From a virus (taxonomy: Duplodnaviria; Caudoviricetes), in the IMG/VR virus record IMGVR_UViG_3300030330_004289, positions 1-40,783 of that record: DNA of 40,783 nt; one strand, written 5' to 3'. Position numbers and translations under genes: made by a program. The notes below the pieces were generated by a model. It was given only the letters and a program-made list of their open reading frames with translations. It had not been told where the DNA came from and made no database searches. Numbering within the stretch: the first letter of the stretch is position 1; the number at the start of each line of letters is the position of its first letter. Of this stretch, positions 7,601 through 26,140 are shown piece by piece.

Positions 7601-8180
7601 AGGAGAGCGTCAAGAAGCACTAGGAAGGGGTTTGGCTGAGGCATTGGGTGGCATACGCTCTAGAGGCTTTAGAGAGGCTCAACAGACAGGTTTAGGCGAG
7701 TTTGCTCGACAAAAAGCTGCGGAAAGAGCTGCAAGCACAGGTTTAGCTAGTTTAGCAGGTCAAGGCTTTGGTGGTTCGCAAGCATTAGCGGGCGCTCTGA
7801 GTGGTTTAGGACAAACCGAGCAAGATATAGGACAACAAAGATATAGTGGGCAATTTGGTCTTGGAACAAGTTTACAGGGCCTAGGAGCGCAAGCAGCAGG
7901 CGCATCTGCATCTGACATAGCTGCACTTTATGGCATGGGATCACAGCAACAAGGACAAGCCCAAGCAATGTTAGATGCACAACGTCGTAATTTACAACAG
8001 CGACAGATGACACCATTGCTTCAATATCAAGCATTGGCTCCGTTTATTGGTATGGCGCCGGCAGGTCAGTTTACAACTACAACTCAATTTGCGCCACCGC
8101 CTAGTCCAATGCAGGCAGGACTTGGCGTTGGTCTATCGGCGTTTGGTGCATTAGGACAGTTGTACGGCGGAGGTAAATAG
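4614..8180 (+). CDS. Putative internal virion/DNA pilot protein with N-terminal PQFDPS repeats
   Basis: 1188 aa: repeat region, Pro-rich linker, Gln/Gly/Ala-rich helical C-terminus ending in a hydrophobic Gly-rich tail. Confidence 0.65.
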   Translation: MRMSAPSFSVGRKKPSPVAVGRPVPPPPSFDDSELRRRLRELEGRVIPQFDPSALQARLAELEGRQAPMFDPSDLQRQIRELGQRPGRDDFMSIERQLQDLRNRDVPQFDPSALQAQIGGLQRQLGNIPQFDDSALRDRLQALEGREIPQFDASGLQSQIGGLQDRLANLPQFDPSNLQSQIGGLQDRLANIPQFDPSGLQEQIGGLQQQLGDIPQFDDSALRERLQALEGREMPQFDPSQLQAGIQGLSDRISNIPQFDPSALQNRLSALENRQAPTFNPDDFREQFLNIAREGIDIPQPTQAFDPSGLQKRLQALENREMPQFDPSRLQERLSALENVQPVVPPAAFDPSGLQARLDALEGREPVAATPAFDPSGLQARLDALENREPVAAPPAFDPSGLMARLDDFESRLGALQQPLPIQPPGDTDLGIKEGAPDIRDFAKPLPGGGTIFDQVPDIGISPPRPPKPAEQDFGFGPGIRPSEIIGRDGEFVGSGGVTPPTDTIELPTAISSPLVPLFDSQGLQRPKPTQRIAEKIKRQQDLNRGLQPPQDDKLINDGPIFGEPTGIDLKPLPRIEGGTVNTTPGGDPFNRPITGEPEPPSGYSNVLPGQSRLYSNDLPGSELPPIPVSGAGTNFRPQPPISIGGASGGVGNMLAISPGGPIPVSRGGRDDLVFPGGSRTFDERGETFDPPSAPRSIFDVEDLSNITDEEIRRRAQETPFVGMPSLEEQQERILGVQRELSRKRNEQRAQKGLPAYEDRVIEGLAPTGPDNIGGGAPGLVDQQQDLTTGDEMQTPTIANEQPFAAGVTQVATGLDPLTEQLLFGIGGQGGFIPGAMRAAEKVFYDDQGNPVVIDEQVAGFSPDQLQAMQMQREALGMQDPYLQGAGQAFGAGTQALEEGLQRGRTAAIGALEATKGGVGSLQEGLGESADILRGTLGGYDPSMTDRFYDPFEDRVVQQTIEDIMEQGAKSDIGARASDIARGGESAFGSRARLGAGERQEALGRGLAEALGGIRSRGFREAQQTGLGEFARQKAAERAASTGLASLAGQGFGGSQALAGALSGLGQTEQDIGQQRYSGQFGLGTSLQGLGAQAAGASASDIAALYGMGSQQQGQAQAMLDAQRRNLQQRQMTPLLQYQALAPFIGMAPAGQFTTTTQFAPPPSPMQAGLGVGLSAFGALGQLYGGGK
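4700..5870 (+). repeat. Coding tandem repeat, about 21-25 aa unit (P[Q/A]FD[P/D]SxLQ...L..LE/GGLQ)
   Basis: More than 15 copies visible in the translation; exact 39-bp repeat at 5078-5116 and 5144-5182 (66-bp period). Confidence 0.9.
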
Positions 8181-9685
8181 TGGCTATATCACGAGCACAA
8201 ATACCTGAACAAGTAGACATATTTAATGAAGGCGGAGCTGCTGAATCAAATGCTGATTCATATACAGATCTATACGATCGATTGTCACAAGCAAACTACG
8301 AAGATAGCTACAACAAATACTTACAAAGATTGTCACAGTTTGCGCCTAAGCAGAAAAAGATGAGTATTTATGATGTAGCTTCTGAATTAGGAGCAGGTCT
8401 TTTGTCAACGCCAAATACAGGTATGGGTTCAACTTTTACTGGTTTAGGTGTAGGGTTTGGTAATATTTCAACGCGCATAAAGCAAGCAGAAAAAGAAAAT
8501 GAGGCAATGCGTAGACAAATAGGATTACAAGCAGCAGAGATGGCTATGCAAGACGAAAAATCGGCTTTGGATTTTTTAACAGAATATGAAATGAAAAACA
8601 TAGATTACCGCAATAAGCGAGGCGATTTATTAACCTTTGAGTACAAAAATGATGCAGGAGAGATAATAAGAACAACAGTAAGAGACAATTACAGTAATGA
8701 TGACATCATAGATGACCTTATATATGTGAAGGGTGCGGTCGAAGCAAAGGCACCTGGTAGTGTTGTAAACATAGCAGGTCAAGAAACTAGCGAAAGAGAC
8801 AAAGAGGCAATAAAGCGTCAGTTCAAACAAGAAGAAGAAATATTTACACAAAGAAAGGCCGGTGTTTCAAGCATTGCAAATCTCAACGAAGCAGAAGCTA
8901 TTGCAAAAAGACTGGGTAAAGAAAATTTTGGTACAGTAGCAAAATTGACTTTATACCCACGGCAATTGTTATCGGGTTTTGGACTTACCTCAGAAAACCA
9001 AGATCAAATTATAGGTGACCAAATTTTGGCTGGTCAGATATCTTTAGGTTTTACAATGGATATAGTAAGTAGAACCAAGGGTGCTATATCAAATAGAGAA
9101 ATGGAAATGTTTGAAAGGGCATCACCCGGCTTGGGCTCAAACTATGTAGGATATTTAAAACAGGTTGATTATTTAAAAAGAGTTGCACAAAGAGACATAG
9201 ATGCTGCCAACGCTTATGCCACAGAGGCAGATAGATTAGAAAAGTTAGAACAACAGGGCGAGCTCAGTGCGTCGCAGGTAACCAGACAATTAGACTTGTT
9301 TATGGGCGACTGGTATAACGATAACTTAATTTTTAATAAAGTAGTCGATGGCAAATTTGTAAAAAGTAATTATTCTCCAGAGGGTTCTACTAAAGATGAG
9401 TTTGGGGAATTGAGTAAAATAGCAACTGGTAATCATATAGATGAGGAGGGCAATGTTTATGTAACAGATGAAGGATTAAATGCAGACTTGTGGGCGAAAA
9501 ATTATAGAGAAGGACAAGATGCAGCAAGTCAACAAAAGTCTTCTTATACCATGAATAAGCTACCAGCTATAGATGCGCTAGAACGTAAGAAAGAATCAAT
9601 CCAAGCAAATGCAGGCCTAACTCCCGATCAAAAAAAAGAACTTATCCAAAAGATTGATGAAAAAATACAGGCATTACAAGAATGA
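8180..9685 (+). CDS. Putative internal virion/ejection protein
   Basis: 501 aa helical protein with GTG start; KGAISNREMEMF..ASPGLG motif; within the ejection gene run. Confidence 0.6.
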   Translation: MAISRAQIPEQVDIFNEGGAAESNADSYTDLYDRLSQANYEDSYNKYLQRLSQFAPKQKKMSIYDVASELGAGLLSTPNTGMGSTFTGLGVGFGNISTRIKQAEKENEAMRRQIGLQAAEMAMQDEKSALDFLTEYEMKNIDYRNKRGDLLTFEYKNDAGEIIRTTVRDNYSNDDIIDDLIYVKGAVEAKAPGSVVNIAGQETSERDKEAIKRQFKQEEEIFTQRKAGVSSIANLNEAEAIAKRLGKENFGTVAKLTLYPRQLLSGFGLTSENQDQIIGDQILAGQISLGFTMDIVSRTKGAISNREMEMFERASPGLGSNYVGYLKQVDYLKRVAQRDIDAANAYATEADRLEKLEQQGELSASQVTRQLDLFMGDWYNDNLIFNKVVDGKFVKSNYSPEGSTKDEFGELSKIATGNHIDEEGNVYVTDEGLNADLWAKNYREGQDAASQQKSSYTMNKLPAIDALERKKESIQANAGLTPDQKKELIQKIDEKIQALQE

Positions 9686-12006
9686 GTGAGAGCTACGAAG
9701 AAATATTAGAGGACATTAATGACATAAGCGACCAGGGTTTATCTCAACAACAAGATCAAGATAATTATACGATTAGAAAAGCTAAGTCTAATTTGTTTTT
9801 TGATGATGACACAAAAATTGAGTTTCTTGCACAAGAGAGGTTTCCAGGCGATAAAAATGCTGCAATGAAATATGTAAATATTGACGGCGACTTATACTAT
9901 GAAAATCCAGTCGGTGAAAAACTTTTTGCAGGCAAAAAATATACAAAAGAATTTCCAGACAATGAAGCTGTTGGTTTCTTTGGTGATAAAATTACGCCTA
10001 ACATTGTGCCTGCTTCTACTTTTGTATCTGATGTTGGTGGTGGAATGGCAGGAGCTCGACAAGGTTTTAAAACAGGTATCAGGTTGCAACAAACCATTCC
10101 TAATCCTTATGCAAAGGCAGCGGTGCTTATCGGAAGCACTGCGATAGGAGGATTTGGTGGTAATTACCTTATAGGCGGATTAAACAGGACTGCTAGAGAG
10201 GCGACCATAGACCAGTTTTATAGCCTCACTCCAGAGGAGATAGCAGCTGCACACAACGATTTGCTTATCTCATCTGCTTTTTCGTTAATACCTTTTGGTC
10301 AAGGCTCAGTCGGTACTTCGAGACTTTTAAATGTTTTTAACAAAGATCCAGACGCTTTAAGGTATTTAATTGAGCTTCGCGGGTCTACTGACGATACGAT
10401 TCGTGAGGCAAATAGACTAGGATTTGATTTGACGCCTGCACAAGCAAGCACGATTGGAAGTCGCGGTAAAGATATACAATATTTTTTAAGTAGACAGCCA
10501 GATGCTAGACAAGTTACACAGTTCTATGATAGTCAAGCAAGTCAGATAGCTGAAGCAATTACAGCATACGCAGATGATATTGGTTCACAGGCAGGAAAAG
10601 TTGGCGATGTAAATACACGTTTGGTAGATACAAGCAAAAGGGTTCTAGATGAGTTACAGAAAAAAAGAAAACAAAGAGCTACAAGGCTATATGACATTTT
10701 AAAACAAGCTCCCGAAGGTATAAAGGTTAATAATATAGACAGTGTCATTGATTTGATAGACAGCAAGATAGCTGGCGAGGTTTTAGATGATAGTGGTAAA
10801 GTAATTAGAGTTGTGGAGCCTCCACCGACAACAGTCGAGAACCTGAAAGAATTTAAGCAAATGTTTTATCGTCAAGATGGAACATTGGTGGATGATTTAA
10901 TGGAGCTTGACGCTAGAAGAACCACTGAGATGAAGCAATTAGCATTAGGTCTTCAAAGTAAAGGCACAGGAGACTCTGGAACAATATTTAGCATAATGAA
11001 TAGTATGACAGCACTGATGGATGAGTCTGCGCCTTTATATAGACAGGCTAGAAGGGTTTATGATCCCAACAAGCCGGCTTTGCAATTAGTTGAAAAAAGT
11101 GCCATTGGCAAATTTGGGAGGTTAATGACCGACAAACAAACCGCCACGGCTATGAAAAATTTATTTGACCCTAATGTATCATTGAAGTCTTTACGAAACT
11201 CTAGGAGAATCTTGCAAGCAGCTGATCCAGAGCTTTTTCAAGATGTAAAAAAACAATTTATATTAGATCAATATGATAGGTTTTTTAGAGCTGAACAATT
11301 GCAAAAAGGTATGCCAGGATTACAAAAACATTTTCAACAAAATAAGATAAAAGCAATGATGCAGGAGATGTTAAGTCCAGAAGAGTTTGAAAACTTTTAT
11401 AGGATGAATGAGTTGATGGGAAGAGCTTTTAGTATACCTGTGGGCGGTTCACCAACGCAGCCTTTAACGGAGATGGCTGGACAAATAGCCTATGAAGGTC
11501 TTGGTAGTGGCACTAAAGCTGCGCAAACTGCGTTAGCTCTGCTGAACTTACCTGGTCGTTATTTGTCAGGGAAATTGGGCGAAGATGTGGTTGCTAGAAT
11601 TGCAAAAGACCAACAACAAGGTTACTTAAAACTTTTAACCGATCAGCTTATAGCAGATCCAGATGTAGCAAAAACACTAGAAGATACTTACAGATTTTTT
11701 AATACTAATGAATTTCTTTTGAAACAGACAGGAGTTCGTGGAGCAGCAGAGGGAGTTGATGCTATAACTGATCCTAGTGTGCAACCATATCAGGGTGGTC
11801 AACAGCCTTCACAGCCAACTTATGAGGAGCTTTTACGAGAAATTGAAGGTGCTAGTGGCACCACACAAGCGCCGCAGCAACCAGCCTTTGACTTGCCCGG
11901 ATCAGATCTAGCGCCACCACAAATGTTGTCGCCGACTATATTGCCAGATGAAAGAGATCGTGAGATCGCAATGCGACAAATGGGTGGGTTGGGATCTTTA
12001 GCTTGA
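9682..12006 (+). CDS. Putative large internal virion/DNA transfer protein
   Basis: 774 aa; Gly/Ala hydrophobic segment then long helical region; last gene of the structural run; ends GGLGSLA. Confidence 0.6.
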   Translation: MSESYEEILEDINDISDQGLSQQQDQDNYTIRKAKSNLFFDDDTKIEFLAQERFPGDKNAAMKYVNIDGDLYYENPVGEKLFAGKKYTKEFPDNEAVGFFGDKITPNIVPASTFVSDVGGGMAGARQGFKTGIRLQQTIPNPYAKAAVLIGSTAIGGFGGNYLIGGLNRTAREATIDQFYSLTPEEIAAAHNDLLISSAFSLIPFGQGSVGTSRLLNVFNKDPDALRYLIELRGSTDDTIREANRLGFDLTPAQASTIGSRGKDIQYFLSRQPDARQVTQFYDSQASQIAEAITAYADDIGSQAGKVGDVNTRLVDTSKRVLDELQKKRKQRATRLYDILKQAPEGIKVNNIDSVIDLIDSKIAGEVLDDSGKVIRVVEPPPTTVENLKEFKQMFYRQDGTLVDDLMELDARRTTEMKQLALGLQSKGTGDSGTIFSIMNSMTALMDESAPLYRQARRVYDPNKPALQLVEKSAIGKFGRLMTDKQTATAMKNLFDPNVSLKSLRNSRRILQAADPELFQDVKKQFILDQYDRFFRAEQLQKGMPGLQKHFQQNKIKAMMQEMLSPEEFENFYRMNELMGRAFSIPVGGSPTQPLTEMAGQIAYEGLGSGTKAAQTALALLNLPGRYLSGKLGEDVVARIAKDQQQGYLKLLTDQLIADPDVAKTLEDTYRFFNTNEFLLKQTGVRGAAEGVDAITDPSVQPYQGGQQPSQPTYEELLREIEGASGTTQAPQQPAFDLPGSDLAPPQMLSPTILPDERDREIAMRQMGGLGSLA

Positions 12007-12246
12007 AGACTCAGTAGCTTTTATAATCGCGCCGTCAACTTCATAATCTAGATCTAAGCCATGAATATCTTGGCCATCTACATTAATAATGACGTTTCTT
12101 GAAATCAGTCTTAACAATGCAGCTTGTTGGTGTAGTGTGGTTCTACTAAACACATCGACAATCTCTTGCGCCTCCATAACCGGGCGATAAGACTGCGGTG
12201 TTGGTTTAGTTTTAGCCATGATTTTGTTAAACAGCTTCATCTGCAT
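11998..12246 (-). CDS. Hypothetical protein
   Basis: 82 aa ORF overlapping the RHH gene and converging on the structural operon; start uncertain. Confidence 0.55.
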   Translation of the reverse strand: MQMKLFNKIMAKTKPTPQSYRPVMEAQEIVDVFSRTTLHQQAALLRLISRNVIINVDGQDIHGLDLDYEVDGAIIKATESSS

Positions 12247-12397
12247 TGACCGTAGCTAATCGTTTGTGTTCTTTTTGTATTAACACTTTGAGCTGATCTA
12301 TTTTAGATCGGTGCTCACTTGCGCATATCTCACACAACAGATCATAAGTGCTAGGATCTACTGCTAAACTTTTTCTAATTTCTTTTCCTTCGCTCAT
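12227..12397 (-). CDS. Ribbon-helix-helix (CopG/Arc-like) DNA-binding protein
   Basis: Not in the ORF track; 56 aa MSEGKEIRKSLAVDPSTYDLLCEICASEHRSKIDQLKVLIQKEHKRLATVNADEAV with strand-helix-helix pattern; promoter upstream. Confidence 0.65.
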   Translation of the reverse strand: MSEGKEIRKSLAVDPSTYDLLCEICASEHRSKIDQLKVLIQKEHKRLATVNADEAV

Positions 12398-12431
12398 AAT
12401 TTTTTATATAAATATATTTATGGTTTGGTAT

Positions 12432-12460
12432 ATTCTATAAAAATTTACACAAATATACAA
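12432..12460 (-). promoter_or_regulatory. Sigma70-type promoter for the RHH operon
   Basis: TTGTAT-17 bp-TAGAAT on the minus strand. Confidence 0.6.
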
Positions 12461-12495
12461 CATCTTATTTATATTTATCTGATATACTAAATCGC

Positions 12496-13209
12496 ATGTA
12501 TAAACTTAGAAACTATCTGTTGAGCATGCAGTCGCATTGGATGATAAACCATACGACGTATCAAGCTGTCCAGGACAGTATTCCAGCCGTGATTAAATAT
12601 AAAGCTAGTAATGGTATGAAGGATATGGCCAAAACTCCGGTGCATAATGTGGTCAAAAAAATCTATCCAGAGATCTATCGCTTTCCTTTGTTTCGCAGAC
12701 ACTTTTGTACTATTTTGCTACGCGAGATAGAACACATGAAAAAGGAGATAGGCTTTGAGGGCAATGCTGAGGAAGATACACTGCGACAGATCCCAGAGAT
12801 AGTTCTAAAAGAACATGTGCCCGAGCTGTATCGGACCATGTGGTTTGTAGTGCAAACAGTATTAAATCCGATCTTCAATGCCATTTGGCAGCGCGACTGT
12901 AAAGATCCTGCAAGCATCCAAATAGCCAACTACAACCTCAAAGAAAAACAACAAGGCGCTTGGCACCATGATGAATCGGCAGATATATCAGTGGTGGTGC
13001 CGTTGAATACTGGTAAGTATAAAGGTGGCGGCACGGCGTTTCACAATTATGGTGAGGTAGCGCCCTTGCCGACAGGACATGCACTTATGTTTCCTTCGTT
13101 TAACAACCTACATAAAGGCTTGCCTGTTGAAGGTGGTGACAGATATCTATTGGTTTTCTGGCTATGTGATAAGCAAAAAACCGTAGATTTATACCATTCT
13201 TTAGACTAA
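12496..13209 (+). CDS. 2OG-Fe(II) oxygenase, PLOD/OGFOD2 (lysyl hydroxylase)-like
   Basis: HHD...H...R motif (WHHDES, LHKGLPVEGGDRYLLVFW), YKGGGT, and upstream IYRFPLF..FC..L..E.EH resembling the PLOD catalytic domain. Confidence 0.85.
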   Translation: MYKLRNYLLSMQSHWMINHTTYQAVQDSIPAVIKYKASNGMKDMAKTPVHNVVKKIYPEIYRFPLFRRHFCTILLREIEHMKKEIGFEGNAEEDTLRQIPEIVLKEHVPELYRTMWFVVQTVLNPIFNAIWQRDCKDPASIQIANYNLKEKQQGAWHHDESADISVVVPLNTGKYKGGGTAFHNYGEVAPLPTGHALMFPSFNNLHKGLPVEGGDRYLLVFWLCDKQKTVDLYHSLD

Positions 13210-13212
13210 AAA

Positions 13213-13992
13213 TTAATACAAATCTGAGATCTCTACAACTTGGACGCCGTCTAGGTTGTAAGGTCTAAAATCATCTTTATCTTTACACTTCAATAACAAA
13301 TCTAACGCTTGCTCATTACGAGCTCTGGCATACTCTAACGCTTCATCAGATAGCGTATAAACGCCGTATGGATAAGGGTGTGCCTTTTCCTGTGCAAGGA
13401 AGTTAAAACCATCAGCACGCAAGCCAGAGGCTTTACAGCCATCTACATACAACGCAGCTTGCATGTGATAGTTAAAACTGTTAATTGCGTTACGAAAGCC
13501 ACGCGGTGAAGCGTCACGACAGGTTTTTAGATCCCAGACGCGCTCACCGTCATACCAGTCGAGTCGACACTTAAAAGGATGGCCATGCAGCTCAAAGACG
13601 AGCGTCAGCTCAGTTTTATGATCTTTAGCTGGCACATAGTCTTGCACAACAGCACGCCTCTCCATACAAACGTCATACAGGTCCCGGCTGATTGCTGTAC
13701 GCTCACCGACGGTTTCCATAAAGTTAGCATAGTCTTCTTTGCCGACTTTGGTGCGGCGATCAATATTGGGTTGGATCACAAACTCTTTGTCAAAGTTGTG
13801 GTGTTCTAAAAATACAGTATGTTGAACTCGGCCTTCCAGTAGAGCTGGTGTTTGCGCCATTTCTTTTTGATGCTTCCAGCGATACGGGCATTTGATGACC
13901 GCAGTCAGATCGTGAGATCTAAACGCTGGGATCTGTGCATATTCTTCGTATGGTATATCTTCGTATATACCTGGTTTCATATCTTCAAACAT
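13213..13992 (-). CDS. RecE/exodeoxyribonuclease VIII-like PD-(D/E)XK nuclease (DUF3799 type)
   Basis: PGIY.DIP.EEY, GR..H...LE, KCRLD, DLKT, YHMQAALY. Confidence 0.88.
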   Translation of the reverse strand: MFEDMKPGIYEDIPYEEYAQIPAFRSHDLTAVIKCPYRWKHQKEMAQTPALLEGRVQHTVFLEHHNFDKEFVIQPNIDRRTKVGKEDYANFMETVGERTAISRDLYDVCMERRAVVQDYVPAKDHKTELTLVFELHGHPFKCRLDWYDGERVWDLKTCRDASPRGFRNAINSFNYHMQAALYVDGCKASGLRADGFNFLAQEKAHPYPYGVYTLSDEALEYARARNEQALDLLLKCKDKDDFRPYNLDGVQVVEISDLY

Positions 13993-14010
13993 AATGTCCT
14001 CGGTAAGGCA

Positions 14011-14059
14011 GCAGGCGACTCACTCATGGAGTAATGTGAGTAGGAGGGTTGTCGCCTGC
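14011..14059. other. Intergenic GC-rich stem-loop
   Basis: GCAGGCGAC (14011-19) pairs with GTCGCCTGC (14051-59); an inner ACTCA/TGAGT pair is also possible. Confidence 0.6.
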
Positions 14060-14066
14060 CTACAAA

Positions 14067-14825
14067 CTAAAACGGAATATTATCTTCAGTTAATCCGCCT
14101 TTGCTATCGTCGCTAGCAAAGTCAGGACTGTTCATTTCCGCCGCAGCTCGATCGGTTAAATTAGATAAATCATCAGCCATCGTGGTTTCGGGCATTTGTT
14201 TATCCGCAGCTATGTACTCAAAACTTTTTTGTATCTCGCCTTGAAGCCAATCGGGTAAGCCATCGAAAAGATCCGATGCTGCTTGCCCTGCTGGCGTTTT
14301 GTTGCCTTTTAGGTATTCACAATAAACATCAAGATCAAAAGACTGTTGTTGGTTATGAGTTTGTACTTGTTGAACACCGCCGTCTGGTCTTTGCAGATTA
14401 ACAATCTTTTGGTTGCCGCCTCCAGTGCCATCTGGTTTAGGTTTGGTGTGCCCAACCTCAATCCTTGCTGTGTTCCCTAGTAACTTTGTTATATCAAAGC
14501 CTTGCAGTTCTTGCTCTGTCAAACTTTTACCCTTCCAACTTTCTATATGTTTGCGCAACGCAGCCATTTCAAATAACGATGCTGTATAAGTTTTAGAAAC
14601 CACAAACGGTCTGCCATCTGGCATCAAAGTTTCGTTGTTGTTAGGATCTAATGCTTCGGTTACCTCAAAGGTTAGTTGCACTCTTTTTTTCTTACTTACT
14701 GTATCTTGGAAAGTAATGTTGGATTCACCCATATCAACAATTTGATAACAGGCGCCAAGATAAATGCCTGGTTGTAATTTTGGTCGGTCTTCACCGCTGT
14801 TCTCTCCGCTTATTGTTAAACTCAT
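14067..14825 (-). CDS. Phage ssDNA-binding/replication protein (NGO0469-like)
   Basis: PG.Y.G.CYQIVDMG, SKTYTASL...A.LRK..ESW.GK, acidic tail ending EDNIPF; start moved to the ATG at 14825 after SD GGAGG. Confidence 0.75.
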   Translation of the reverse strand: MSLTISGENSGEDRPKLQPGIYLGACYQIVDMGESNITFQDTVSKKKRVQLTFEVTEALDPNNNETLMPDGRPFVVSKTYTASLFEMAALRKHIESWKGKSLTEQELQGFDITKLLGNTARIEVGHTKPKPDGTGGGNQKIVNLQRPDGGVQQVQTHNQQQSFDLDVYCEYLKGNKTPAGQAASDLFDGLPDWLQGEIQKSFEYIAADKQMPETTMADDLSNLTDRAAAEMNSPDFASDDSKGGLTEDNIPF

Positions 14826-19219: not shown

Positions 19220-19425
19220 CCTATTGCAAACATGTATTGTTTTATGCAAATAAGTGCAAATTGTGAGCACAACAGTAACAGGAGTCCCTTGGAACCGCTT
19301 TTTTACAGGGAAAAAGACATATTAGGGACCCCTACACCCCAATATTGGCTAGCGCGTTTACAGTTGTAGTTATAACTAGGTTTGACACACTGAATCACAT
19401 GAAAAAATGATTCCTACCCCTCAAC

Positions 19426-19461
19426 TTTACTAGCCAACATTTCCTAAGCTACAATCACTAC
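19426..19461 (+). promoter_or_regulatory. Promoter, probably giving a leaderless mRNA
   Basis: TTTACT-18-TACAAT then 6 nt to ATG 19462; no SD. Confidence 0.5.
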
Positions 19462-21222
19462 ATGGAAACCGACGGCATCAACGCATTGAATCCTTATATC
19501 GGAATAGCTGAACCTGTTAGCCGCCAACCTTTTGGCAGTGTTGTGCTTGGACAATCCCAAGGACCAGTCATCGACTACCTCACTAGACCGATGGTTCCAT
19601 CGCCAAAGTCCAGGCGTCGCGACACCCTCAAAGGCATAGCTCAGTTTCTACCGTTTCTCAGTGGTGAATTAGCTAAAGCCGAAGGCGATAAACTCGGCGT
19701 GGCTTTATCCGGACTAGATTTTCTAGGTGCAGCTGGCGCACCAGCGAAAGCGGTTGTCAAAAAAGGCATAGACGCTATACCCGACCAGGCCACCAAAAAT
19801 TTTTCCGATGCTATGAAATCTAAAAACCTAATGTTTGTTCACAATACTTCTGAGGAAGCAATCCGCAGCTTTGATGCTATGGGCGGTTTACCTTCACCCA
19901 GTCTAGCCGTAACCGAAAGCGAGATCCCGCTCAAAGGCTTTGGTAAAATTCAACTAATTGGCAAGCCGGAAAAGTTTGATCCAGCCATAGATCCTCGCAA
20001 CAAGATATATTCAGCTGATGCCTACACACCAAGAGCGCCAAAGAAACTTCGTTTAGCCAAAGAAGGAGCTGAATCGAAACTTACCAAAGAGTACAAAGCG
20101 CTAGCAAAAGAGTATGGCGAACTAGATGAGCTTGAGCGAGGCCAATCTGCTTTACGCAATTTGCAAAAAGACAATATGTATTACCCAGAAAATCGGCTTG
20201 ATGAACTTGACAGGTTTTTTAACTCTGATTTAGGAAAACTTAAGTATCTAAAAGATCAAGGATTTGATCCAAGCCTACCAACATTCAAATCAGCCGCCGC
20301 TGATCCTAGACTCCTCGTATCTGGATTTGAAGGAACAAAAGGTTTCAAAAAATGGGCAAAAAAAGAAAAAAACAAATATCTCTCCCAAGACGGCGTGTTG
20401 CAATACTTTGACGACTTTGAAGAAACCATGGTTACCAAACCCTACACTCTCGAGAACGCAGTCAATAGCATGATAAAAGAAACGCAACGCGGTGGTGAAG
20501 GCTTTGCTGGTGGTTATTCGCCAGCCAGAATGAAAGCACTCATGTCCAAGGAGTTCAAAGATCTGCCTGATATAAAAGCCGAACGTGGGAGGCTTACTGA
20601 TAAACCACCTAGCGCAATGCATTTTGGCATACAAATAGATGAGCTATTAGCTAAATACAAATTTCCTGCAACTCTGGATGCAAAATTTACTCCAAAAGGT
20701 TCATTTTACGATGAAAATGTCGGCAGTAACATGCTTAACGACATCGGCATAGCTATTGAAGATGGCAAAAAATTTGACCAAAAATTATTAAAAGATGTTT
20801 ACAACCAAAACATCGACTTTGACGAGCTGGAAAAATTTACGCGCAATAAGTTTGAATACGACAACCCACCCAAAGGATTCCTAGACGACCTTGAAGATAT
20901 ATTTATCAAAAACGCTACCCGCAATGTCGAATACTTTGAGGCTAAACCAATCCGAGCTGTTGGCTTTGATGAATTTGCTGGCGCTATTGTACCCAAAGAT
21001 ACCAGCCAAGATGTTATTAATATCTTACAAAAACGCGGCTTAAAAGTTATCAAACAAACTGATGACGACTTTACCGAAGATTTTTTCAAAACTGGCGCCC
21101 GGAAACAATACTTCCAAGACCAGATGTTCTCCTTCGCGCCTGTCGCAGGCGCTGGTGGAGTAGCTGCGCTGTCAATCGAAAAAAATACTGAGGATGAAGA
21201 TAAAGGCTTAGGCTCACTATAA
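19462..21222 (+). CDS. Polyvalent-protein-type domain protein (possible ADP-ribosyltransferase-like fold) with a pre-toxin-like helical N-terminus
   Basis: NLMFVHN...GGLPSPSLAV...FGKI.L...DP...NKIYSADAYTP and YFEAKP.RAVGFDEF.GAIVP blocks that I recall from large polyvalent phage/plasmid proteins; activity is inferred only. Confidence 0.5.
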   Translation: METDGINALNPYIGIAEPVSRQPFGSVVLGQSQGPVIDYLTRPMVPSPKSRRRDTLKGIAQFLPFLSGELAKAEGDKLGVALSGLDFLGAAGAPAKAVVKKGIDAIPDQATKNFSDAMKSKNLMFVHNTSEEAIRSFDAMGGLPSPSLAVTESEIPLKGFGKIQLIGKPEKFDPAIDPRNKIYSADAYTPRAPKKLRLAKEGAESKLTKEYKALAKEYGELDELERGQSALRNLQKDNMYYPENRLDELDRFFNSDLGKLKYLKDQGFDPSLPTFKSAAADPRLLVSGFEGTKGFKKWAKKEKNKYLSQDGVLQYFDDFEETMVTKPYTLENAVNSMIKETQRGGEGFAGGYSPARMKALMSKEFKDLPDIKAERGRLTDKPPSAMHFGIQIDELLAKYKFPATLDAKFTPKGSFYDENVGSNMLNDIGIAIEDGKKFDQKLLKDVYNQNIDFDELEKFTRNKFEYDNPPKGFLDDLEDIFIKNATRNVEYFEAKPIRAVGFDEFAGAIVPKDTSQDVINILQKRGLKVIKQTDDDFTEDFFKTGARKQYFQDQMFSFAPVAGAGGVAALSIEKNTEDEDKGLGSL

Positions 21223-21264
21223 ATTTAGTTTGCAATTGTTTGCAAGTTTTGAGAAACTTTATCA

Positions 21265-21684
21265 ATGCCTATTAATTCTAGAAATAAGGGCGCACAATTT
21301 GAACGCGACGTAGCTAAGATTCTCAACGGCTTTTTTGCCGATAACAATATTGATTTCCAAACAAAACGCAATCTAGACCAATACCAACAAAAAGATCTAT
21401 GCGATCTCGACATACCCTTTCATGCGGTTGAATGTAAATTTTACAAAGCAGGCGAATGGCTGAAAAAAGCCTGGTGGGACCAAGTTTGCAGTGCCAGTGA
21501 TGGCAAGATCCCTGTCCTGATCTTTAAATTCAACCGCAGACCGATCCGCGTGTGCGTGCCGCTGCACGCCATGAACCTCGATTGGCCGCACGAAAACGAC
21601 AAAATATGTGTTATGGACATGGAGCATTGGCTCGATGTGCTCAAAAAGAACTGGCGCAGATATGACAAACACTTTACGAGCTAA
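21265..21684 (+). CDS. Holliday junction resolvase-like PD-(D/E)XK nuclease
   Basis: NSRNKGAQFER.VA, D-LD, VECK, WW.Q, PVLIFK.NR. Confidence 0.8.
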   Translation: MPINSRNKGAQFERDVAKILNGFFADNNIDFQTKRNLDQYQQKDLCDLDIPFHAVECKFYKAGEWLKKAWWDQVCSASDGKIPVLIFKFNRRPIRVCVPLHAMNLDWPHENDKICVMDMEHWLDVLKKNWRRYDKHFTS

Positions 21685-21686
21685 CG

Positions 21687-22016
21687 GTGCAATATAAATT
21701 TAACAAATTTTATTACAAACCATTGCCTGATAATCTGACGATTAAAAACAGTGCTATTGAAGGCTTAGGACTCTTTGCTACTGAAAATATTACCGCCGAT
21801 ACAGACCTTGGCATGACGCACATCAAAGTGCCAATTATTAACGGCTATGTGCGCACTCCGTTAGGTGGTTTTTTAAATCATCACGCCAACCCAAACTGCT
21901 GCTTGATTGAACTTTTGGATTGGGACGATTACAGAATTTTCCATTTGCACACCATAAGGCATATTAATCAGGGTGATGAGCTAACTTTAAACTATCATGT
22001 CGACGAACAAGAATGA
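21687..22016 (+). CDS. SET domain protein-lysine methyltransferase
   Basis: S.IEGLGLFATE.I, FLNHHANPNC, I..GDELTLNY; GTG start. Confidence 0.88.
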   Translation: MQYKFNKFYYKPLPDNLTIKNSAIEGLGLFATENITADTDLGMTHIKVPIINGYVRTPLGGFLNHHANPNCCLIELLDWDDYRIFHLHTIRHINQGDELTLNYHVDEQE

Positions 22017-22557
22017 AACACCCAATCACGGCGTTACTGGACTGTCGATCAGTCAAGATGAAGTAGATCTGTTCTTAGATTACTTGGTTGAAAGCGAGCC
22101 AGTGCAAGCAAAAGTGCACAAAAACGCTAAGGAGACAGCAAATATTGATATCCGGGATGCGCAGATTCACTACATTGACGCTAACCAAGACCGTCTCTAC
22201 AGAATCCTTAATAAAATCGCTGTTGTAGCCAATAAATACTTTAATTATCAAATTACTGGCATTGAAACAGCGCAACTTATCCACTATGAGGCTCCAAGTA
22301 ACGGCTATGGCTATCATATTGACATTGGACCTGACGGCACAGCTGCCACACGCAAGATAAGTATGACACTTTGCCTGAATGAAGAGTACGAAGGCGGCGA
22401 ATTGTGCTTTAGAACCGGCGAACAACCTAGTTGTACGCGTCCCAAGGTAGGTGAAATTGTAGCTTTTAGCTCATTTATCTCGCATCAGGTCAAACCGGTA
22501 ACCAAAGGCAATCGTTATGTAGTGGTTGCTTGGTTTACAGGCCCGCCGTTTCGTTAA
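21997..22557 (+). CDS. 2OG-Fe(II) oxygenase (prolyl hydroxylase/PKHD type)
   Basis: YHID, RKISMTL.L.EEYEGGEL, HQVKPVTKGNRYVVVAWF.GP.FR. Confidence 0.92.
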   Translation: MSTNKNETPNHGVTGLSISQDEVDLFLDYLVESEPVQAKVHKNAKETANIDIRDAQIHYIDANQDRLYRILNKIAVVANKYFNYQITGIETAQLIHYEAPSNGYGYHIDIGPDGTAATRKISMTLCLNEEYEGGELCFRTGEQPSCTRPKVGEIVAFSSFISHQVKPVTKGNRYVVVAWFTGPPFR

Positions 22558-22709
22558 AAGCGTGGCGCAAACATAGTGCGCAAGCTTGACATTTTATCAT
22601 CAGGCACATCGCGCAAATGTTTTGGCACTTCACCCTCACATTTGTGCCTTAGCAACTCACTGACAGGAATAGTCCTGCCACATTTTTCACATTTAGCTTT
22701 TGCTATCAT
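22554..22709 (-). CDS. Small C2HC zinc-finger protein
   Basis: 51 aa MIAKAKCEKCGRTIPVSELLRHKCEG...; not in the ORF track. Confidence 0.55.
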   Translation of the reverse strand: MIAKAKCEKCGRTIPVSELLRHKCEGEVPKHLRDVPDDKMSSLRTMFAPRF

Positions 22710-22911
22710 TTTCATACTTTACAATTAAAACCTCAGCGCGTCGATTCACTTCATCTGTCATCTCGTGCAACGTGTCGATCCGTTTTTGTAGATCCTCTCG
22801 TTCCACCGGATTGGTAACTTGTGGCAGTTGATCTTCTAGATCTTCGATCTGTTGTGAACAAACAAGGCGTAAATGTCGTGCTACACCCTCAATCTCGTCT
22901 TTCATCTTCAT
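22693..22911 (-). CDS. Hypothetical coiled-coil protein
   Basis: Start reassigned to the ATG after SD GGAGG; heptad pattern. Confidence 0.6.
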   Translation of the reverse strand: MKMKDEIEGVARHLRLVCSQQIEDLEDQLPQVTNPVEREDLQKRIDTLHEMTDEVNRRAEVLIVKYENDSKS

Positions 22912-23005
22912 GGCGTTTAACCTCCCTCTCAAATAATTTATTAGACTGGTTTTGCAACGATTTCTCAACGCATTTATCGATTAAGTTCCAAAACCAATCA
23001 AGCAT
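22889..23005 (-). CDS. Small hypothetical protein
   Basis: 38 aa MLDWFWNLIDKCVEKSLQ..., fills the gap in the leftward operon. Confidence 0.4.
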   Translation of the reverse strand: MLDWFWNLIDKCVEKSLQNQSNKLFEREVKRHEDERRD

Positions 23006-23010
23006 CACTC

Positions 23011-23274
23011 TTAATTACTGAAAAAATCCTCTGGTTTGTATTCATTTGCTTCTTTAATTTCTAGCTTTATAGCATCAACTCGTTTTATCATCTTCTCAAA
23101 CTTTTTATCCTGTGGCATAACTCCCTTTTTTGTAAAATCTCGCAAAACTTTGGGCAGAATATCAAGAGCTTTTGCCATACTTGTATTGTTGTGAAAATAA
23201 TGTTTTGTCAAAAACTGTATATCCTTATTAAGCTTTATTACTTCTATTTGTTTAATCATGCTCTTAATCATCAA
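23011..23274 (-). CDS. Hypothetical protein, possible Cro/XRE-like HTH
   Basis: NNTSMAKALDILPKVLRDFTKKG..P resembles an HTH. Confidence 0.5.
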   Translation of the reverse strand: MMIKSMIKQIEVIKLNKDIQFLTKHYFHNNTSMAKALDILPKVLRDFTKKGVMPQDKKFEKMIKRVDAIKLEIKEANEYKPEDFFSN

Positions 23275-23489
23275 TGCACCACCCTTGTCGCTGCATCGTC
23301 TTTATAAACCACGCCAACCTTGCGGCCATTCATCTCTTCAATCTCTTGCCACAGCTTAAGATCCTCTGGCGCCATCTCAGACATAGCTATCTGATTGTAT
23401 GGCTTGTCATGTTTTCTGGACAAGTAGCGAATAAAAATTTCTATTAACACTGGATACAAAGTATCTTTGATATGTTTTGGTGCACTCAT
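23271..23489 (-). CDS. Hypothetical protein
   Basis: Likely start MSAPKH at 23489, overlapping the upstream stop. Confidence 0.55.
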   Translation of the reverse strand: MSAPKHIKDTLYPVLIEIFIRYLSRKHDKPYNQIAMSEMAPEDLKLWQEIEEMNGRKVGVVYKDDAATRVVH

Positions 23490-23785
23490 TATAAAACCCT
23501 CCAAACTCTTATACCTTCATCTACTCGGCGTTGTTTAAATTTTATACCTTTTTGATAACCAGCTTGACGCAAAACCCTAACTTTATCTTCATTATCAAAT
23601 AATACAGAATCACCAACCTCCATCTTGGTTGCTAGCTTAACCCATATAAAAGGTTTTTTTTGACCAGGCATAGGTATATCTTTGTCGATTTTTACAGGCA
23701 ACTCAGCATCCTCTATATATTTGTCATAAGAGCTTCTGTCTCTTGTTGGCTTTATAAGCTGCCACTCCATTTTTTCTTCACTCAT
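23489..23785 (-). CDS. Small phage protein, probably DNA-binding (IDKDIPMP...MEVGDS...GIRVWR type)
   Basis: Motif set recurrent in phage early proteins; SD GAGGG upstream. Confidence 0.65.
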   Translation of the reverse strand: MSEEKMEWQLIKPTRDRSSYDKYIEDAELPVKIDKDIPMPGQKKPFIWVKLATKMEVGDSVLFDNEDKVRVLRQAGYQKGIKFKQRRVDEGIRVWRVL

Positions 23786-23819
23786 AATAATTTTCCCTCA
23801 AAATTAATTTATAAAAACT

Positions 23820-23870
23820 AATATACTAAATTTTATAAATAGTTGCAAATATCTGCTCATTTGTTATTAT
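23820..23870. promoter_or_regulatory. Back-to-back promoters sharing one palindromic -35 (TTGCAA)
   Basis: TTGCAA 23843-48; plus: 16 bp then TGn-TATTAT; minus: 17 bp then TATATT. Confidence 0.65.
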
Positions 23871-23905
23871 TGTATCGTGAGTAACAAATTTTTTATGGAG
23901 GGACT

Positions 23906-24136
23906 ATGAATTATACGATAAACGCAATAAAACCAAGAGCCAAGGAGCAAGAGTACGGGTTTCAGATAAATTCTGTAAAGCCTTGCTGGTCATTTTTCTT
24001 TTGGTTAGATTTTACGAAAAGAAGATACAAGTATCCAAGACCTATCTTTGAGTATTCAAAATGTGATTTTTATGGACTGCATATCAAAGCAGGCAAGCTA
24101 CATATTCAGTTTACAAATTACACGGAGGCAGCATGA
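23906..24136 (+). CDS. Hypothetical protein
   Basis: 76 aa, strong SD GGAGGG, aromatic-rich. Confidence 0.6.
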   Translation: MNYTINAIKPRAKEQEYGFQINSVKPCWSFFFWLDFTKRRYKYPRPIFEYSKCDFYGLHIKAGKLHIQFTNYTEAA

Positions 24137-24924
24137 TTGAACCAAGAAAACAAGTAAACCATATCTATGGCTATATCAGAGTATCGTCTGAGCAACAGGT
24201 CAAAGACGGTTCTTCACTCGAAGAACAAAAAAGATCGATTGAGGAGTTTGTCGCTAACAAATATGGTGGCAGGAAAGTTGATAAGTTCTTTACCGACGCT
24301 GGTATCAGTGGCATGAAGCCATTGTTAGAGCGACCAGGCTCTAGGGAGCTGACCGACGTGATGGACGCCAACGATGTGATAGTAGCAACCAAATTAGACA
24401 GGCTTGCAAGATCTTTTCTAGAAATGCTGAACATGATACCTACACTTGAGGAGACTGGTATTACACTGTATTTCTGCGATATGTTTAATGATATACCTGT
24501 GGTTTTACCGAAAGAAAAAGCCAAAACAGGATTAGCTGCAAAGATGGATATGACAAGGATCGCCAACCAACAACTGGTCACTAATATGGCTATGTTTGCT
24601 GAAATTGAAAGAGAAACGATTATGTCAAGACTTAACGGTGGCAAACTTGTCTATGCAGAGAAAGGCTACTCAATCGGTGGACATGTGCCGTTTGGTTATC
24701 GCAAGGAGTATGACGACTCTGGCAGCAGACGCAGAACGAAGTTAGTGCCTATACCAGAGGAGTTTGCAGTGCTCAAACATATTTGGGCATTACGCGAAAA
24801 AGGCTTAGGCGCAAGGAAAATAGCCAAACAGATTCAAAGCTCTCATCCCGGCTATGAGGATTTTCCGTATCACAAGGTCCACAGGATCCTAAAACGTAAG
24901 TTCCAAGGACTGCACCACGAATAG
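24133..24924 (+). CDS. Serine recombinase (resolvase catalytic domain + short recombinase DNA-binding domain)
   Basis: YGYIRVSSEQQ, D.GISG, RPG, KLDRLARS, FAE.ERE.I..R, GGHVPFGY; SD GGAGG. Confidence 0.93.
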   Translation: MIEPRKQVNHIYGYIRVSSEQQVKDGSSLEEQKRSIEEFVANKYGGRKVDKFFTDAGISGMKPLLERPGSRELTDVMDANDVIVATKLDRLARSFLEMLNMIPTLEETGITLYFCDMFNDIPVVLPKEKAKTGLAAKMDMTRIANQQLVTNMAMFAEIERETIMSRLNGGKLVYAEKGYSIGGHVPFGYRKEYDDSGSRRRTKLVPIPEEFAVLKHIWALREKGLGARKIAKQIQSSHPGYEDFPYHKVHRILKRKFQGLHHE

Positions 24925-24955
24925 AAAAAGTTAGCGTTTCAGTTATAATCATGGA
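24922..24955 (+). promoter_or_regulatory. Promoter, probably giving a leaderless mRNA
   Basis: TATAAT at 24944-49, 6 nt before ATG 24956; weak -35 TAGAAA; no SD. Confidence 0.5.
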
Positions 24956-26140
24956 ATGTATCAAAATATTGACATATTCCAACAAGGTGGAGCAGCTGAC
25001 AAAGATCTTTTAGATCGAGTGGTTGAAGGCTACGAAGAGAATGTGCCAATACCAGCGCAGATATTAGCTGGTTTTACACCGCCCGGAATGGCAGCAGATT
25101 TAGTCGCTGGCGGTAAATATGGCCGCGATGCAATCGAAGAGTTTAGAGAGGGCAATATCAAACCTGGCTTAATGTATGCAGGTATCGCTGGACTCTCAAC
25201 CCTTGGTGCGCTACCGCTGATTGGTGATTTATTACGACCAGGTAAACAAGCGCTAAAAAGCGGCATTGCTGTCTTAGATGATGATATGCTGGATCTTAAA
25301 AAAATACTTGATGATCCTAAGCTTTCAAACGCTGATAAATTAGAACAAGCTAAAAACCACCCTGCGGTGGTACAAGCAACAAAAGCTATGGAAGATATAC
25401 CATTAACAAGAGATATGCCAGGATACGGCACTGATGACTTTGTTAAAAACAGAAAATTTAACATCGCAGGTAAATCAGTAACGGGTTATGACGATGCAGT
25501 TGATGAGCTTTACAAAGGAGGCAGAACTTTAGCATACCGAGAAGAAAATTTGGCTATACCCATAAATGTTATGGCAAAAAATACAGGTGAAAAGTCGGCA
25601 ACAATAGTAATAGGTCCACCAGCAGCAGGGAAAAGCAGAATATCTAATCCTATTGCAATTAAAAACAAAGCCACAATAATTGATGCTGATGAATCAAAAA
25701 AAATACTACCCGAATACCAAGGCGGAATCGGATCTAATGCAACGCACCACGAGTCTAAAATTTTATCCAACAAAGTGATGGAAACAGCCATTGCAAGAGG
25801 TGACAATTTAGTTTTACCTAAAGTTGGTAATGACACTGATGCGATACGCACATTAACAAATAATTTAAAAAACGAAGGCTATAGAGTGAATTTGGTTTTA
25901 ACAGAAATAGATCCTGATTTAGCATTGATTAGAATGAATGATAGATTTATAAGAAAGGGCAGACTGATTCCGTCAGATTACGCCTTAGCTAATAGAGGTA
26001 AACAAAATATAACTTATAATAAACTTAGAAAGGAGGGAATAGCAGATGGTTATGGAAAAATCGACACGACTACGAGGGTTGGCGAGCCTAAAAAAATCTT
26101 CGAAGACACAGCAGACATCTTCACCGACACTGGTCTTTGA
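24956..26140 (+). CDS. Zeta-toxin/P-loop kinase domain protein with a pre-toxin-like helical N-terminus
   Basis: GPPAAGKS Walker A, IIDADESKKILPEY, HHES, GDNLV, GY.V.LV, R...R....GR.IP. Confidence 0.82.
   Translation: MYQNIDIFQQGGAADKDLLDRVVEGYEENVPIPAQILAGFTPPGMAADLVAGGKYGRDAIEEFREGNIKPGLMYAGIAGLSTLGALPLIGDLLRPGKQALKSGIAVLDDDMLDLKKILDDPKLSNADKLEQAKNHPAVVQATKAMEDIPLTRDMPGYGTDDFVKNRKFNIAGKSVTGYDDAVDELYKGGRTLAYREENLAIPINVMAKNTGEKSATIVIGPPAAGKSRISNPIAIKNKATIIDADESKKILPEYQGGIGSNATHHESKILSNKVMETAIARGDNLVLPKVGNDTDAIRTLTNNLKNEGYRVNLVLTEIDPDLALIRMNDRFIRKGRLIPSDYALANRGKQNITYNKLRKEGIADGYGKIDTTTRVGEPKKIFEDTADIFTDTGL

What the first reader, a model, noticed from the sequence alone, without database searches (positions are those of the whole stretch)
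8180..26140. Candidate virion-packaged effector system: ejection-protein motifs on stand-alone toxin/enzyme genes
Seen: the zeta-domain protein begins QNIDIFQQGGAAD, nearly the same as EQVDIFNEGGAAE at the start of ejection-type protein 8180. The 19462 protein ends KGLGSL, like GGLGSLA ending protein 9682. Protein 3067 carries MRAGG/FAQGG/MQEGG and GIASL. Both stand-alone proteins also have a Gly/Ala helical-hairpin segment (GFTPPG...LGALPLIG..L...K; QFLPF...LDFLGAAG..AK...K) like the pre-toxin linkers of polymorphic toxins, ahead of unrelated enzymatic domains. Known: phages do inject head-packaged enzymes (T4 Alt, P1 DarB, MuF fusions). Inference: short xxxGG and GLxSL motifs act as capsid-loading or processing tags for interchangeable injected effectors.
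Basis: partly seen in the sequence, partly recalled or inferred. Interest (0 to 1): 0.85.

Follow-up and report, generated by a model that had tools for sequence, protein, structure and literature searches.

The report
Tagged phage cargo toxins, hidden antitoxins
This marine phage and its relatives put the same few short peptide tags on the proteins they likely inject with their DNA and on free-standing, swappable toxin-like enzymes, one of which overlaps a hidden gene for a predicted antitoxin, so the tags probably work as address labels that load these enzymes into the virus particle.

Summary
In relatives G[IL]xSL occurs 26 times in ejection-block proteins (2.3 expected) and 0 times in non-virion proteins (1.9 expected). 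Bare xxGG is only weakly specific. The N-terminal modules of 24956 and 19462 carry swappable zeta-kinase, RelA/SpoT-like, PBECR5, ART-like and ParB-like domains. Several inserted domains are bounded by tags. New here: a conserved 61-aa gene hidden in the +1 frame at 26046-26231, itself GLASL-tagged, predicted to bind the zeta domain (0.85 against best control 0.00). RelA-type variants carry a nested antisense partner gene instead (25 of 25). Best reading (0.55): a MuF-free, tag-addressed polymorphic toxin/immunity system carried in the virion. Loading, cleavage, the receptor and toxicity are all untested. The two hairpins are not demonstrably homologous and match PT-TG only as a weak lead. The scan noted the Gly-Gly tag before on other DNA. 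I found no paper on the tags in 10 searches. New variant of a known kind; interest 0.7.

The parts
3067..4611 (+). First ejection-block protein (514 aa): GIASL, GLGSL, GIISL, three xxxGG copies and a conserved C-terminal small domain related to tape-measure C-termini
   Evidence: PHROG tape-measure hits over aa 416-480; PDB 8rk3_A tape measure E=0.0018; 5195 clusters match aa 405-514
4282..4344 (+). MRAGG / FAQGG / MQEGG triplet (aa 406-426 of 3067)
4372..4476 (+). Core of the conserved small domain of 3067 (candidate docking or reader domain; role inferred)
   Evidence: found in 3067 orthologues including HTVC023P, HTVC027P, DSL-LC04, psg01; model pLDDT 60, no fold match
4614..8180 (+). Pilot-type ejection protein with GLASL at aa 1043
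   Evidence: similar to HTVC023P gp81 (E=2e-10), which matches phrog_4287 DNA ejection protein
8180..9685 (+). Ejection-block protein; starts like the major-capsid N-terminus of relatives, then VDIFNEGG (8213-8236)
   Evidence: ejection role inferred from gene position only
9682..12006 (+). Last ejection-block protein; C-terminal GLGSL (11986-12000)
   Evidence: orthologues end in GIASL/GLGSL
19462..21222 (+). Stand-alone candidate cargo: N-terminal GINAL tag, hairpin (19561-19779), PBECR5 domain (19816-20271), C-terminal GLGSL (21205-21219)
   Evidence: Pfam PBECR5 E=2.9e-24; modules exchanged in relatives; no conserved partner gene found
24956..26140 (+). Stand-alone candidate cargo: IDIFQQGG tag (24968-24991), hairpin (25004-25270), zeta-type kinase domain
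   Evidence: Pfam Zeta_toxin E=7.7e-16; Foldseek best hits PezT/zeta E=6e-6; same N-module carries RelA-like, ART-like and ParB-like domains in relatives
26030..26036 (+). Shine-Dalgarno-like AAGGAGG inside the zeta gene, 9 nt before the hidden ATG
   Evidence: GGAGG present in 22 of 22 distinct loci with upstream DNA
26046..26231 (+). Hidden 61-aa gene in the +1 frame over the last 31 zeta codons; GLASL at aa 11-15; predicted antitoxin
   Evidence: ORF present in 23 of 23 distinct zeta loci; synonymous diversity 0.45 falls to 0.195 in the overlap, 24 genes; complex score 0.85 vs best control 0.00

Best explanation
[quoted passage not shown] Shown: the tags are protein-level motifs enriched in ejection-block and stand-alone proteins; they sit at termini and at the edges of several inserted domains; modules are exchanged; and the zeta and RelA-like enzymes each come with their own small conserved partner gene. 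Inferred: late in infection the tags bind a head-assembly component (scaffold or capsid inner wall, or the conserved small domain of 3067; no receptor is shown). The hairpin helps the unfolded cargo cross the inner membrane. The enzyme then acts on host cell-wall precursors (zeta type), nucleotide pools or tRNA (RelA-like) or RNA (PBECR5). The partner protein protects the producing cell. The 26046 partner carries a GLASL tag of its own outside its predicted binding surface, so it may be packaged together with the kinase.
For: Enrichment with negative classes at chance. Degenerate codon use: 45 distinct DNA strings for 52 G[IL]xSL sites. A hairpin profile lacking the N-terminal tags found 65 clusters at 50% identity; of the 57 not seen before, 38 carry a terminal tag (shuffle mean 2.6, maximum 7). 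Of 47 of those scanned, 20 have zeta, RelA_SpoT, PBECR5 or ART-PolyVal hits, 24 have none and 3 have unrelated hits. Both N-modules carry zeta and RelA-like domains among 195 distinct proteins. In 5 of 12 aligned pairs the insert is bounded by KGIxSL or [FY]QEGG copies. The same domains are described as MuF fusions or virion-associated polyvalent domains (PMC5512222 passages); the zeta domain also hits a minor-head PHROG. In distant relatives such genes lie next to portal or large terminase. RelA-type proteins keep their frame open through about 100 codons of an antisense gene and most end in a DIF tag. Partner genes are strictly matched: the antisense partner goes with 25 of 25 RelA-type and 0 of 22 zeta-type proteins. 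Zeta/partner complex: 0.85, best of 3 controls 0.00; that mark was reached by 116 of 157 solved complexes and 2 of 215 mismatched pairs; runs agree in at least 75% of contacts; partner pLDDT at least 62. The proven crAss001 virion cargo gp45 has DIF-GG-like, FAEGG, FAYGG and GLASL matches.
Against: No virion proteome or experiment. 22 of 67 ejection-block proteins have no tag match. CRP-901 gp66, a PBECR5 protein in a cultured relative's head operon, has none. In the window both stand-alone genes lie outside the structural operon among replication and accessory genes. [FYM]xxGG is only 1.6-fold enriched in the ejection block and is conserved in non-virion enzymes. DIF is at chance in the ejection block of relatives (0 vs 1.4), so that tag links stand-alone proteins to ejection proteins only through 8180 itself. 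All RelA_SpoT hits are below Pfam's cut-off. No partner gene was found for PBECR5. A tagged antitoxin travelling with its toxin would blunt it. The complex pass could owe something to solved epsilon/zeta structures. crAss001 gp46, also proven cargo, has no tag.
Confidence: 0.55

Rival explanations
1. The tags mark maturation cuts: a protease or self-cleaving domain would cut just after the hydrophobic residue of the xxxGG motif and at GIxSL joints, releasing single enzymes from polyproteins. This can coexist with loading.
For: The mapped cut in T5 pb2 is after R1127 (PMC10038345 passage) and the next residues are AEGG. Lambda gpH loses about 14 kDa at an unknown site (PMC12617516 passages) and has FATGG at 733, where a cut would release 12-13 kDa. 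Inserted domains are bounded by tags. An xxxGG separates the RelA-like domain from its antisense-coded tail.
Against: No protease domain among 27 head, neck and neighbouring genes of G001/G002 scanned (the capsid hit to protease-capsid fusion families covers only their capsid part). Tags 1-5 residues from a C-terminus would release almost nothing. The pb2 likeness is by eye and not significant by profile. An INEGG at 444-448 lies inside the crAss001 gp45 stretch 425-552 reported as one folded domain.
Confidence: 0.2
2. The stand-alone genes are ordinary phage toxin-antitoxin or superinfection-exclusion modules that act in the infected cell, anchored by the hairpin, and never enter the virion; the tags would be oligomerisation or membrane-association motifs.
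For: Matched partner genes; position outside the structural operon with own -10-like boxes just upstream; a serine resolvase next door; moderately hydrophobic second hairpin helix (1.54 and 1.18).
Against: It does not explain why G[IL]xSL is shared with ejection proteins and absent from 162 non-virion proteins, nor the portal- or terminase-adjacent position in distant relatives.
Confidence: 0.17
3. The motifs are recombination scars or generic linkers: short homologies at which cassettes are swapped, with no protein function.
For: Insert boundaries coincide with the motifs.
Against: Codons are degenerate and copies within one gene differ in DNA. Tags occur at free termini. The GL[AET]SL of the hidden gene is kept by fixing synonymous codons of the zeta frame, and in two loci the zeta residue changes while the +1 motif stays GLxSL or the codon shifts conservatively.
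Confidence: 0.08

Closest known systems
MuF polymorphic toxins (PMC5576092, PMC12226406; passages read)
   Same: Phage-encoded, constant N-terminal part with variable C-terminal toxin domains (nuclease, ART, RelA-like), small cognate immunity gene, proposed delivery in the head.
   Different: No MuF domain; short tags plus a hairpin instead. Immunity candidates are overprinted (+1 frame) or antisense. Genes move around the genome. Tags are shared with ejection proteins.
Phage polyvalent proteins (PMC5512222; passages read)
   Same: Same domain stock (PBECR, RelA/SpoT, ParB-like, ART, zeta-like kinase), mosaic architectures, predicted virion packaging and injection.
   Different: Small proteins with 1-3 domains; each window protein has one recognised domain. 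The passages I read describe no recurring terminal or junction tags.
T4 capsid targeting sequence of IPI-III and Alt (PMC9026906; passages read)
   Same: A short peptide shared by unrelated internal proteins, proposed as a way to load varied cargo.
   Different: The CTS is N-terminal, proven sufficient, and removed by gp21. Here there are three or four motif types, N-terminal, internal and C-terminal, none tested, and no protease was found.
epsilon/zeta and PezAT toxin-antitoxin systems (PDB 1gvn, 2p5t, 3q8x)
   Same: Zeta-type kinase fold with intact Walker A motif and a small helical partner predicted to cover a substrate-side helix.
   Different: The partner is downstream and overlapping, matches no Pfam family and carries a cargo tag; the toxin has a tag and hairpin in front; identity to solved zeta toxins is 15-20%.
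crAss001 cargo protein C1/gp45 and tape-measure C-termini (lambda gpH, T5 pb2, PDB 8rk3)
   Same: Ejected proteins bearing xxxGG motifs; gp45 also has GLASL; the 3067 small domain resembles tape-measure C-termini.
   Different: Different phage groups. Homology of the 3067 domain to the gp45 portal-bound domain or to pb2 was not supported.

Membership tests
MuF polymorphic toxins | N-terminal MuF domain | tested here: not met
   no MuF-family Pfam hit in window proteins or scanned relatives
MuF polymorphic toxins | Variable C-terminal toxin domain on a constant N-terminus | tested here: met
MuF polymorphic toxins | Small cognate immunity gene next to the toxin | tested here: inconclusive
   conserved partner genes for zeta and RelA types, binding predicted for zeta; none found for PBECR5; immunity untested
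MuF polymorphic toxins | Gene lies in the head-packaging module | tested here: inconclusive
   yes in distant relatives, no in the window
MuF polymorphic toxins | Temperate phage | not tested
   a serine resolvase is present; lifestyle not examined
Phage polyvalent proteins | Two or more effector domains in one chain | tested here: inconclusive
   one recognised domain in each window protein; two or three in many relatives
Phage polyvalent proteins | Domains from the polyvalent repertoire | tested here: met
   PBECR5 and ART-PolyVal above cut-off, RelA_SpoT below
Phage polyvalent proteins | Packaged and injected | not testable with these tools
   no virion proteome found
T4-type capsid targeting sequence | Short peptide shared by unrelated internal proteins | tested here: met
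   internal location itself is inferred from gene position
T4-type capsid targeting sequence | N-terminal only and removed by a prohead protease | tested here: not met
   tags are also internal and C-terminal; no protease among 27 genes scanned
T4-type capsid targeting sequence | Sufficient to package a foreign protein | not testable with these tools
   needs a fusion experiment
PT-TG pre-toxin domain (PF14449) | Match to the family profile | tested here: not met
   0 of 17 hairpins match at E<=10; atlas neighbours are PT-TG clusters at 0.88 and 0.83, leads only
epsilon/zeta toxin-antitoxin | Zeta-type kinase with intact Walker A | tested here: met
   Pfam E=7.7e-16; motif invariant in 10 of 10 aligned; Foldseek
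epsilon/zeta toxin-antitoxin | Upstream epsilon/PezA antitoxin (definition recalled, not from a call) | tested here: not met
   upstream gene is a resolvase; the partner is downstream and has no Pfam match
epsilon/zeta toxin-antitoxin | UDP-GlcNAc kinase activity and toxicity | not testable with these tools
   needs assays

The most novel reading that the evidence does not exclude
A very abundant marine podophage lineage uses a small code of interchangeable peptide tags (xxxGG, GIxSL, DIF and a mimic of the capsid N-arm) as a universal head-loading signal. Any enzyme cassette that acquires a tag becomes an injected effector, and toxin and tagged antitoxin are packaged as a pair from overprinted genes. 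The Gly-Gly and GLxSL code would reach as far as crassvirus cargo and tape-measure proteins.
Probability: 0.3. Interest if true: 0.88.

Novelty: new variant of a known kind. Interest (0 to 1): 0.7.

Why it matters
How podophages choose internal cargo is little understood; T4's tag is the tested case I found in print. A five-residue code shared by ejection proteins and swappable toxins gives direct mutational and fusion tests in cultured relatives (HTVC023P, HTVC027P, CRP-901). It would also define a MuF-free polymorphic toxin system in a very common ocean phage group: about 19,000 stored viral stretches match the capsid protein. The hidden partner genes (overprinted and antisense) are easy to miss in annotation and are two unnamed candidate antitoxin families. 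Pelagiphage infection is reported to create ribosome-deprived cells by an unknown route (PMC11066056 passages); injected RNase- or RelA-like enzymes are a speculative but testable candidate.

Tried and rejected
Homology between the two hairpins: BLAST not significant; profiles 1.5% and 0.7%; local iteration did not merge them. PT-TG/VENN/LXG membership: no Pfam match. Fold of the 3067 small domain: pLDDT 60, no match at E<=0.001. Homology of that domain to crAss001 gp45 or T5 pb2: not supported; to lambda gpH only 64% over 19 columns. Solved structures by sequence: none for the capsid protein or 24956. The hairpin region of the 24956 model is below pLDDT 50. Partner gene for PBECR5: none conserved in 15 genes. 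A +1 frameshift at the CTT-TGA stop of the zeta gene (the prfB analogy is recalled, not from a call) would fuse the predicted binding helix in cis; set aside as minor because the SD, the ATG and the synonymous constraint begin 31 codons earlier and the codon before the stop is ATT in some loci. Promoter-like sites are not above chance in number (21 vs 17.3). PMC10386132 and PMC8954989 passages held nothing on tags. Earlier-note look-ups by sequence and for the antisense gene returned nothing.
Full report
What the window is. G000 is a 40,783-base virus record. It has terminase, nozzle-like, tail-fibre, lysis, primase and curli (CsgF/CsgG/FecR/cyclase) genes but lacks portal and capsid. Its near-twin G001 supplies those. 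The capsid protein of relative G002 is 55-62% identical to those of DSL-LC04, 023Pt_psg01, pelagiphages HTVC023P and HTVC027P and roseophages CRP-901/902. The host of this phage was not determined.

Observation. To avoid circularity I fixed the patterns and counted them in 16 other genomes or large genome parts, de-duplicated at 70% identity, with window-like proteins removed. Classes were my own: ejection block by gene position after the nozzle gene; non-virion and outer structural by family; stand-alone by inspection, after I had seen the motifs. G[IL]xSL: 26 vs 2.3 expected (58 ejection proteins), 9 vs 0.2 (10 stand-alone), 0 vs 1.9 (162 non-virion), 3 vs 2.8 (155 outer), 3 vs 2.9 (523 unassigned). 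[FYM]xxGG: 74 vs 45, 10 vs 3.1, 15 vs 15.6, 32 vs 38 and 39 vs 31 in the same classes, and 17 vs 4.2 in 30 small basic proteins. [IV][DN][IV]F, which I defined from the window and its first relatives: 13 vs 0.5 in stand-alone proteins, 0 vs 1.4 in the ejection block, 9 vs 4.0 in unassigned proteins. The bare GG motif is also conserved in terminase, resolvase, a 2OG enzyme and a tail protein, so it means little away from termini and joints. 45 of 67 ejection-block proteins carry a tag and 22 do not. A fourth shared start, MAISRAQ-like, occurs in 12 capsid proteins and 9 other proteins of 1181, including 8180 (shuffle mean 0.01; pattern post hoc). The ejection label is supported for 4614 and 3067 (tape-measure similarity), and rests on position for 8180 and 9682.

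Modularity. The N-terminal 110 residues of 24956 are attached to a zeta kinase in a minority of relatives and to a RelA/SpoT-like domain, with or without ART-like or ParB-like inserts, in most. Those of 19462 carry PBECR5, ART-like, RelA-like, zeta and unknown domains. A signature census of 195 distinct proteins, many of them close relatives, gave for the 24956 type 115 RelA-containing, 27 zeta, 2 ParB-only and 16 other; for the 19462 type 15 PBECR5, 9 zeta, 2 RelA, 4 ART-like and 5 other (the ART and ParB labels are my motif readings). The N-terminal tag itself is exchanged: 19462-type proteins begin with GIxAL (17 of 35) or DIF (17 of 35). In 5 of 12 aligned pairs the insert runs from one KGIxSL-type or [FY]QEGG copy to the next; in the others it ends at the xxxGG or is unrelated to tags. 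A profile of 17 hairpins without their N-terminal tags found 65 clusters in 1.84 billion representatives. Of the 57 new ones, at least three of them evidently false hits that I left in the count, 38 have a terminal tag against a shuffle mean of 2.6. Pfam on 47 of them (10 short ones left out) gave zeta 6, RelA_SpoT 6 (all under cut-off), PBECR5 2, ART-PolyVal 7 (one shared with RelA), unrelated hits 3, nothing 24. The two hairpins look alike in pattern but their homology is not shown. PT-TG is the nearest named family for both, as a lead only.

Hidden partner genes. The window has a 61-codon frame at 26046-26231, shifted +1 over the last 31 zeta codons, with AAGGAGG 9 nt upstream. It is present, starts with ATG and contains GL[AET]SL in 23 of 23 distinct zeta loci. 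Those loci were fetched with a pattern that fixed the amino acids, not the synonymous codons, of the first 11 overlap codons. Synonymous diversity of zeta codons falls from 0.45 to 0.195 in the overlap (24 genes). It has no Pfam, NCBIfam or PHROG match. Co-folding supports binding to the zeta domain: 0.85, best of 3 controls 0.00; this mark was reached by 116 of 157 solved complexes and 2 of 215 mismatched pairs; runs agree in at least 75% of contacts; partner pLDDT at least 62. The counts hold only roughly with my alignments, and solved epsilon/zeta complexes could bias the pass. Contacts use partner residues 30-60 and include zeta N261-R281, leaving the tag free. RelA-type relatives lack this zeta partner context and carry a ~77-aa antisense gene with its own conserved ATG inside their last ~100 codons: 25 of 25 RelA-type and 0 of 22 zeta-type proteins. 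In L131 the toxin stops just after its xxxGG and the same partner stands as an almost separate convergent gene (E=2.6e-22), so it is a real gene; 77 clusters match it. No partner was found for PBECR5.

Mechanism. Shown: protein-level tags, class enrichment, exchange of modules, matched partner genes, zeta fold. Inferred: virion loading, receptor, membrane crossing, toxicity, immunity. I favour loading labels (0.55). Tags at free C-termini would release nothing if cut; no protease was found among 27 head-region genes; frames are kept open through an antisense gene to reach a terminal DIF; and distant relatives encode such proteins beside portal or terminase (portal read from N-terminus and size by likeness to the annotated DSL-LC04 portal). 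Cleavage (0.2) remains live because T5 pb2 is cut at R1127 just before AEGG and lambda gpH has FATGG near the expected size, though neither likeness is statistically firm. A non-virion toxin-antitoxin role (0.17) fits the window's gene positions and the partners, but not the tag sharing. Against universality: CRP-901 gp66 (PBECR5, head operon) and crAss001 gp46 have no tag.

Comparison with what is known. It works like MuF polymorphic toxins and phage polyvalent proteins, with a T4-CTS-like label in place of MuF. It fails membership of MuF toxins, PT-TG by profile, canonical epsilon/zeta operons and the T4 CTS as defined. Papers seen, all as search passages only: PMC5512222, PMC10386132, PMC8954989, PMC10038345, PMC12617516, PMC9026906, PMC3482391, PMC5576092, PMC11066056, PMC10149686, PMC10172136, PMC9599517, PMC12226406. 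No supplements were read; those of PMC5512222 and PMC9599517 could list some of these proteins. Ten searches showed no paper on these tags or genes; the library lacks most subscription papers. Earlier notes of this scan already report a Gly-Gly tag in other marine and crAss-like phages; they gave me the T5 and crAss001 leads, which I checked in part.

Verdict. A real feature and a new variant of virion-delivered polymorphic toxin systems. Interest 0.7.

Noticed in passing
L002:2266-2490 (-), L012:9727-9963 (-), L131:861-1100 (-): Unnamed ~77-aa protein encoded antisense inside or beside every RelA/SpoT-like cargo gene examined; candidate new antitoxin family, no Pfam match; binding not modelled.
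   Followed up: partly
window 8180-8200; L052:3156-4073 (-): 8180, some other ejection proteins and small basic proteins begin like the major capsid protein (MAISRAQ-like); the capsid N-arm also has GLN[AS]L at 15-19. Possible capsid-arm mimicry.
   Followed up: partly
L050:11588-11917 (+); L058:17047-17457 (-): Small very basic head-region proteins made of repeated M/YxxGG units, possibly DNA-condensing internal proteins.
   Followed up: partly
window 26234-26374 (+): 46-aa ORF conserved directly downstream of both zeta- and RelA-type genes, before the tail-fibre genes; no confident family match.
   Followed up: partly
L020:3898-4539 (+); L023:2697-3293 (+): Small tagged proteins next to cargo genes whose C-terminal halves look beta-barrel-like by eye and end in xxxGG plus DIF or GIxxL.
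   Followed up: no
window 33077-37911 (+): Curli module (CsgF, CsgG, curlin-repeat, FecR, CHASE2-cyclase), already described for HTVC023P-type phages (PMC9599517 passages).
   Followed up: partly
window 4614-5900 (+): N-terminal part of 4614 is a variable array of PQFDxSxLQ repeats followed by a Pro-rich stretch; its length differs strongly among near relatives.
   Followed up: no
window 24944-24949 and 19450-19455 (+): Both stand-alone genes have a -10-like box a few bases before the start and no Shine-Dalgarno, suggesting own, near-leaderless transcripts.
   Followed up: partly
window 26135-26143 (+): The zeta gene ends CTT-TGA with the +1 frame open; a frameshift would append the predicted inhibitory helix in cis.
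   Followed up: partly
L023:3352-5757, L009:4782-7061, L141:994-3282, L164:1454-3568 (+): A family of ~700-800-aa tagged stand-alone proteins with a shared acidic core and no confident Pfam match; unknown cargo enzyme.
   Followed up: partly
L052:16740-19828 (-): In G002 the PBECR5-type and RelA-type cargo genes are tandem, whereas in the window they are 3.7 kb apart; cargo genes move between a few slots.
   Followed up: partly
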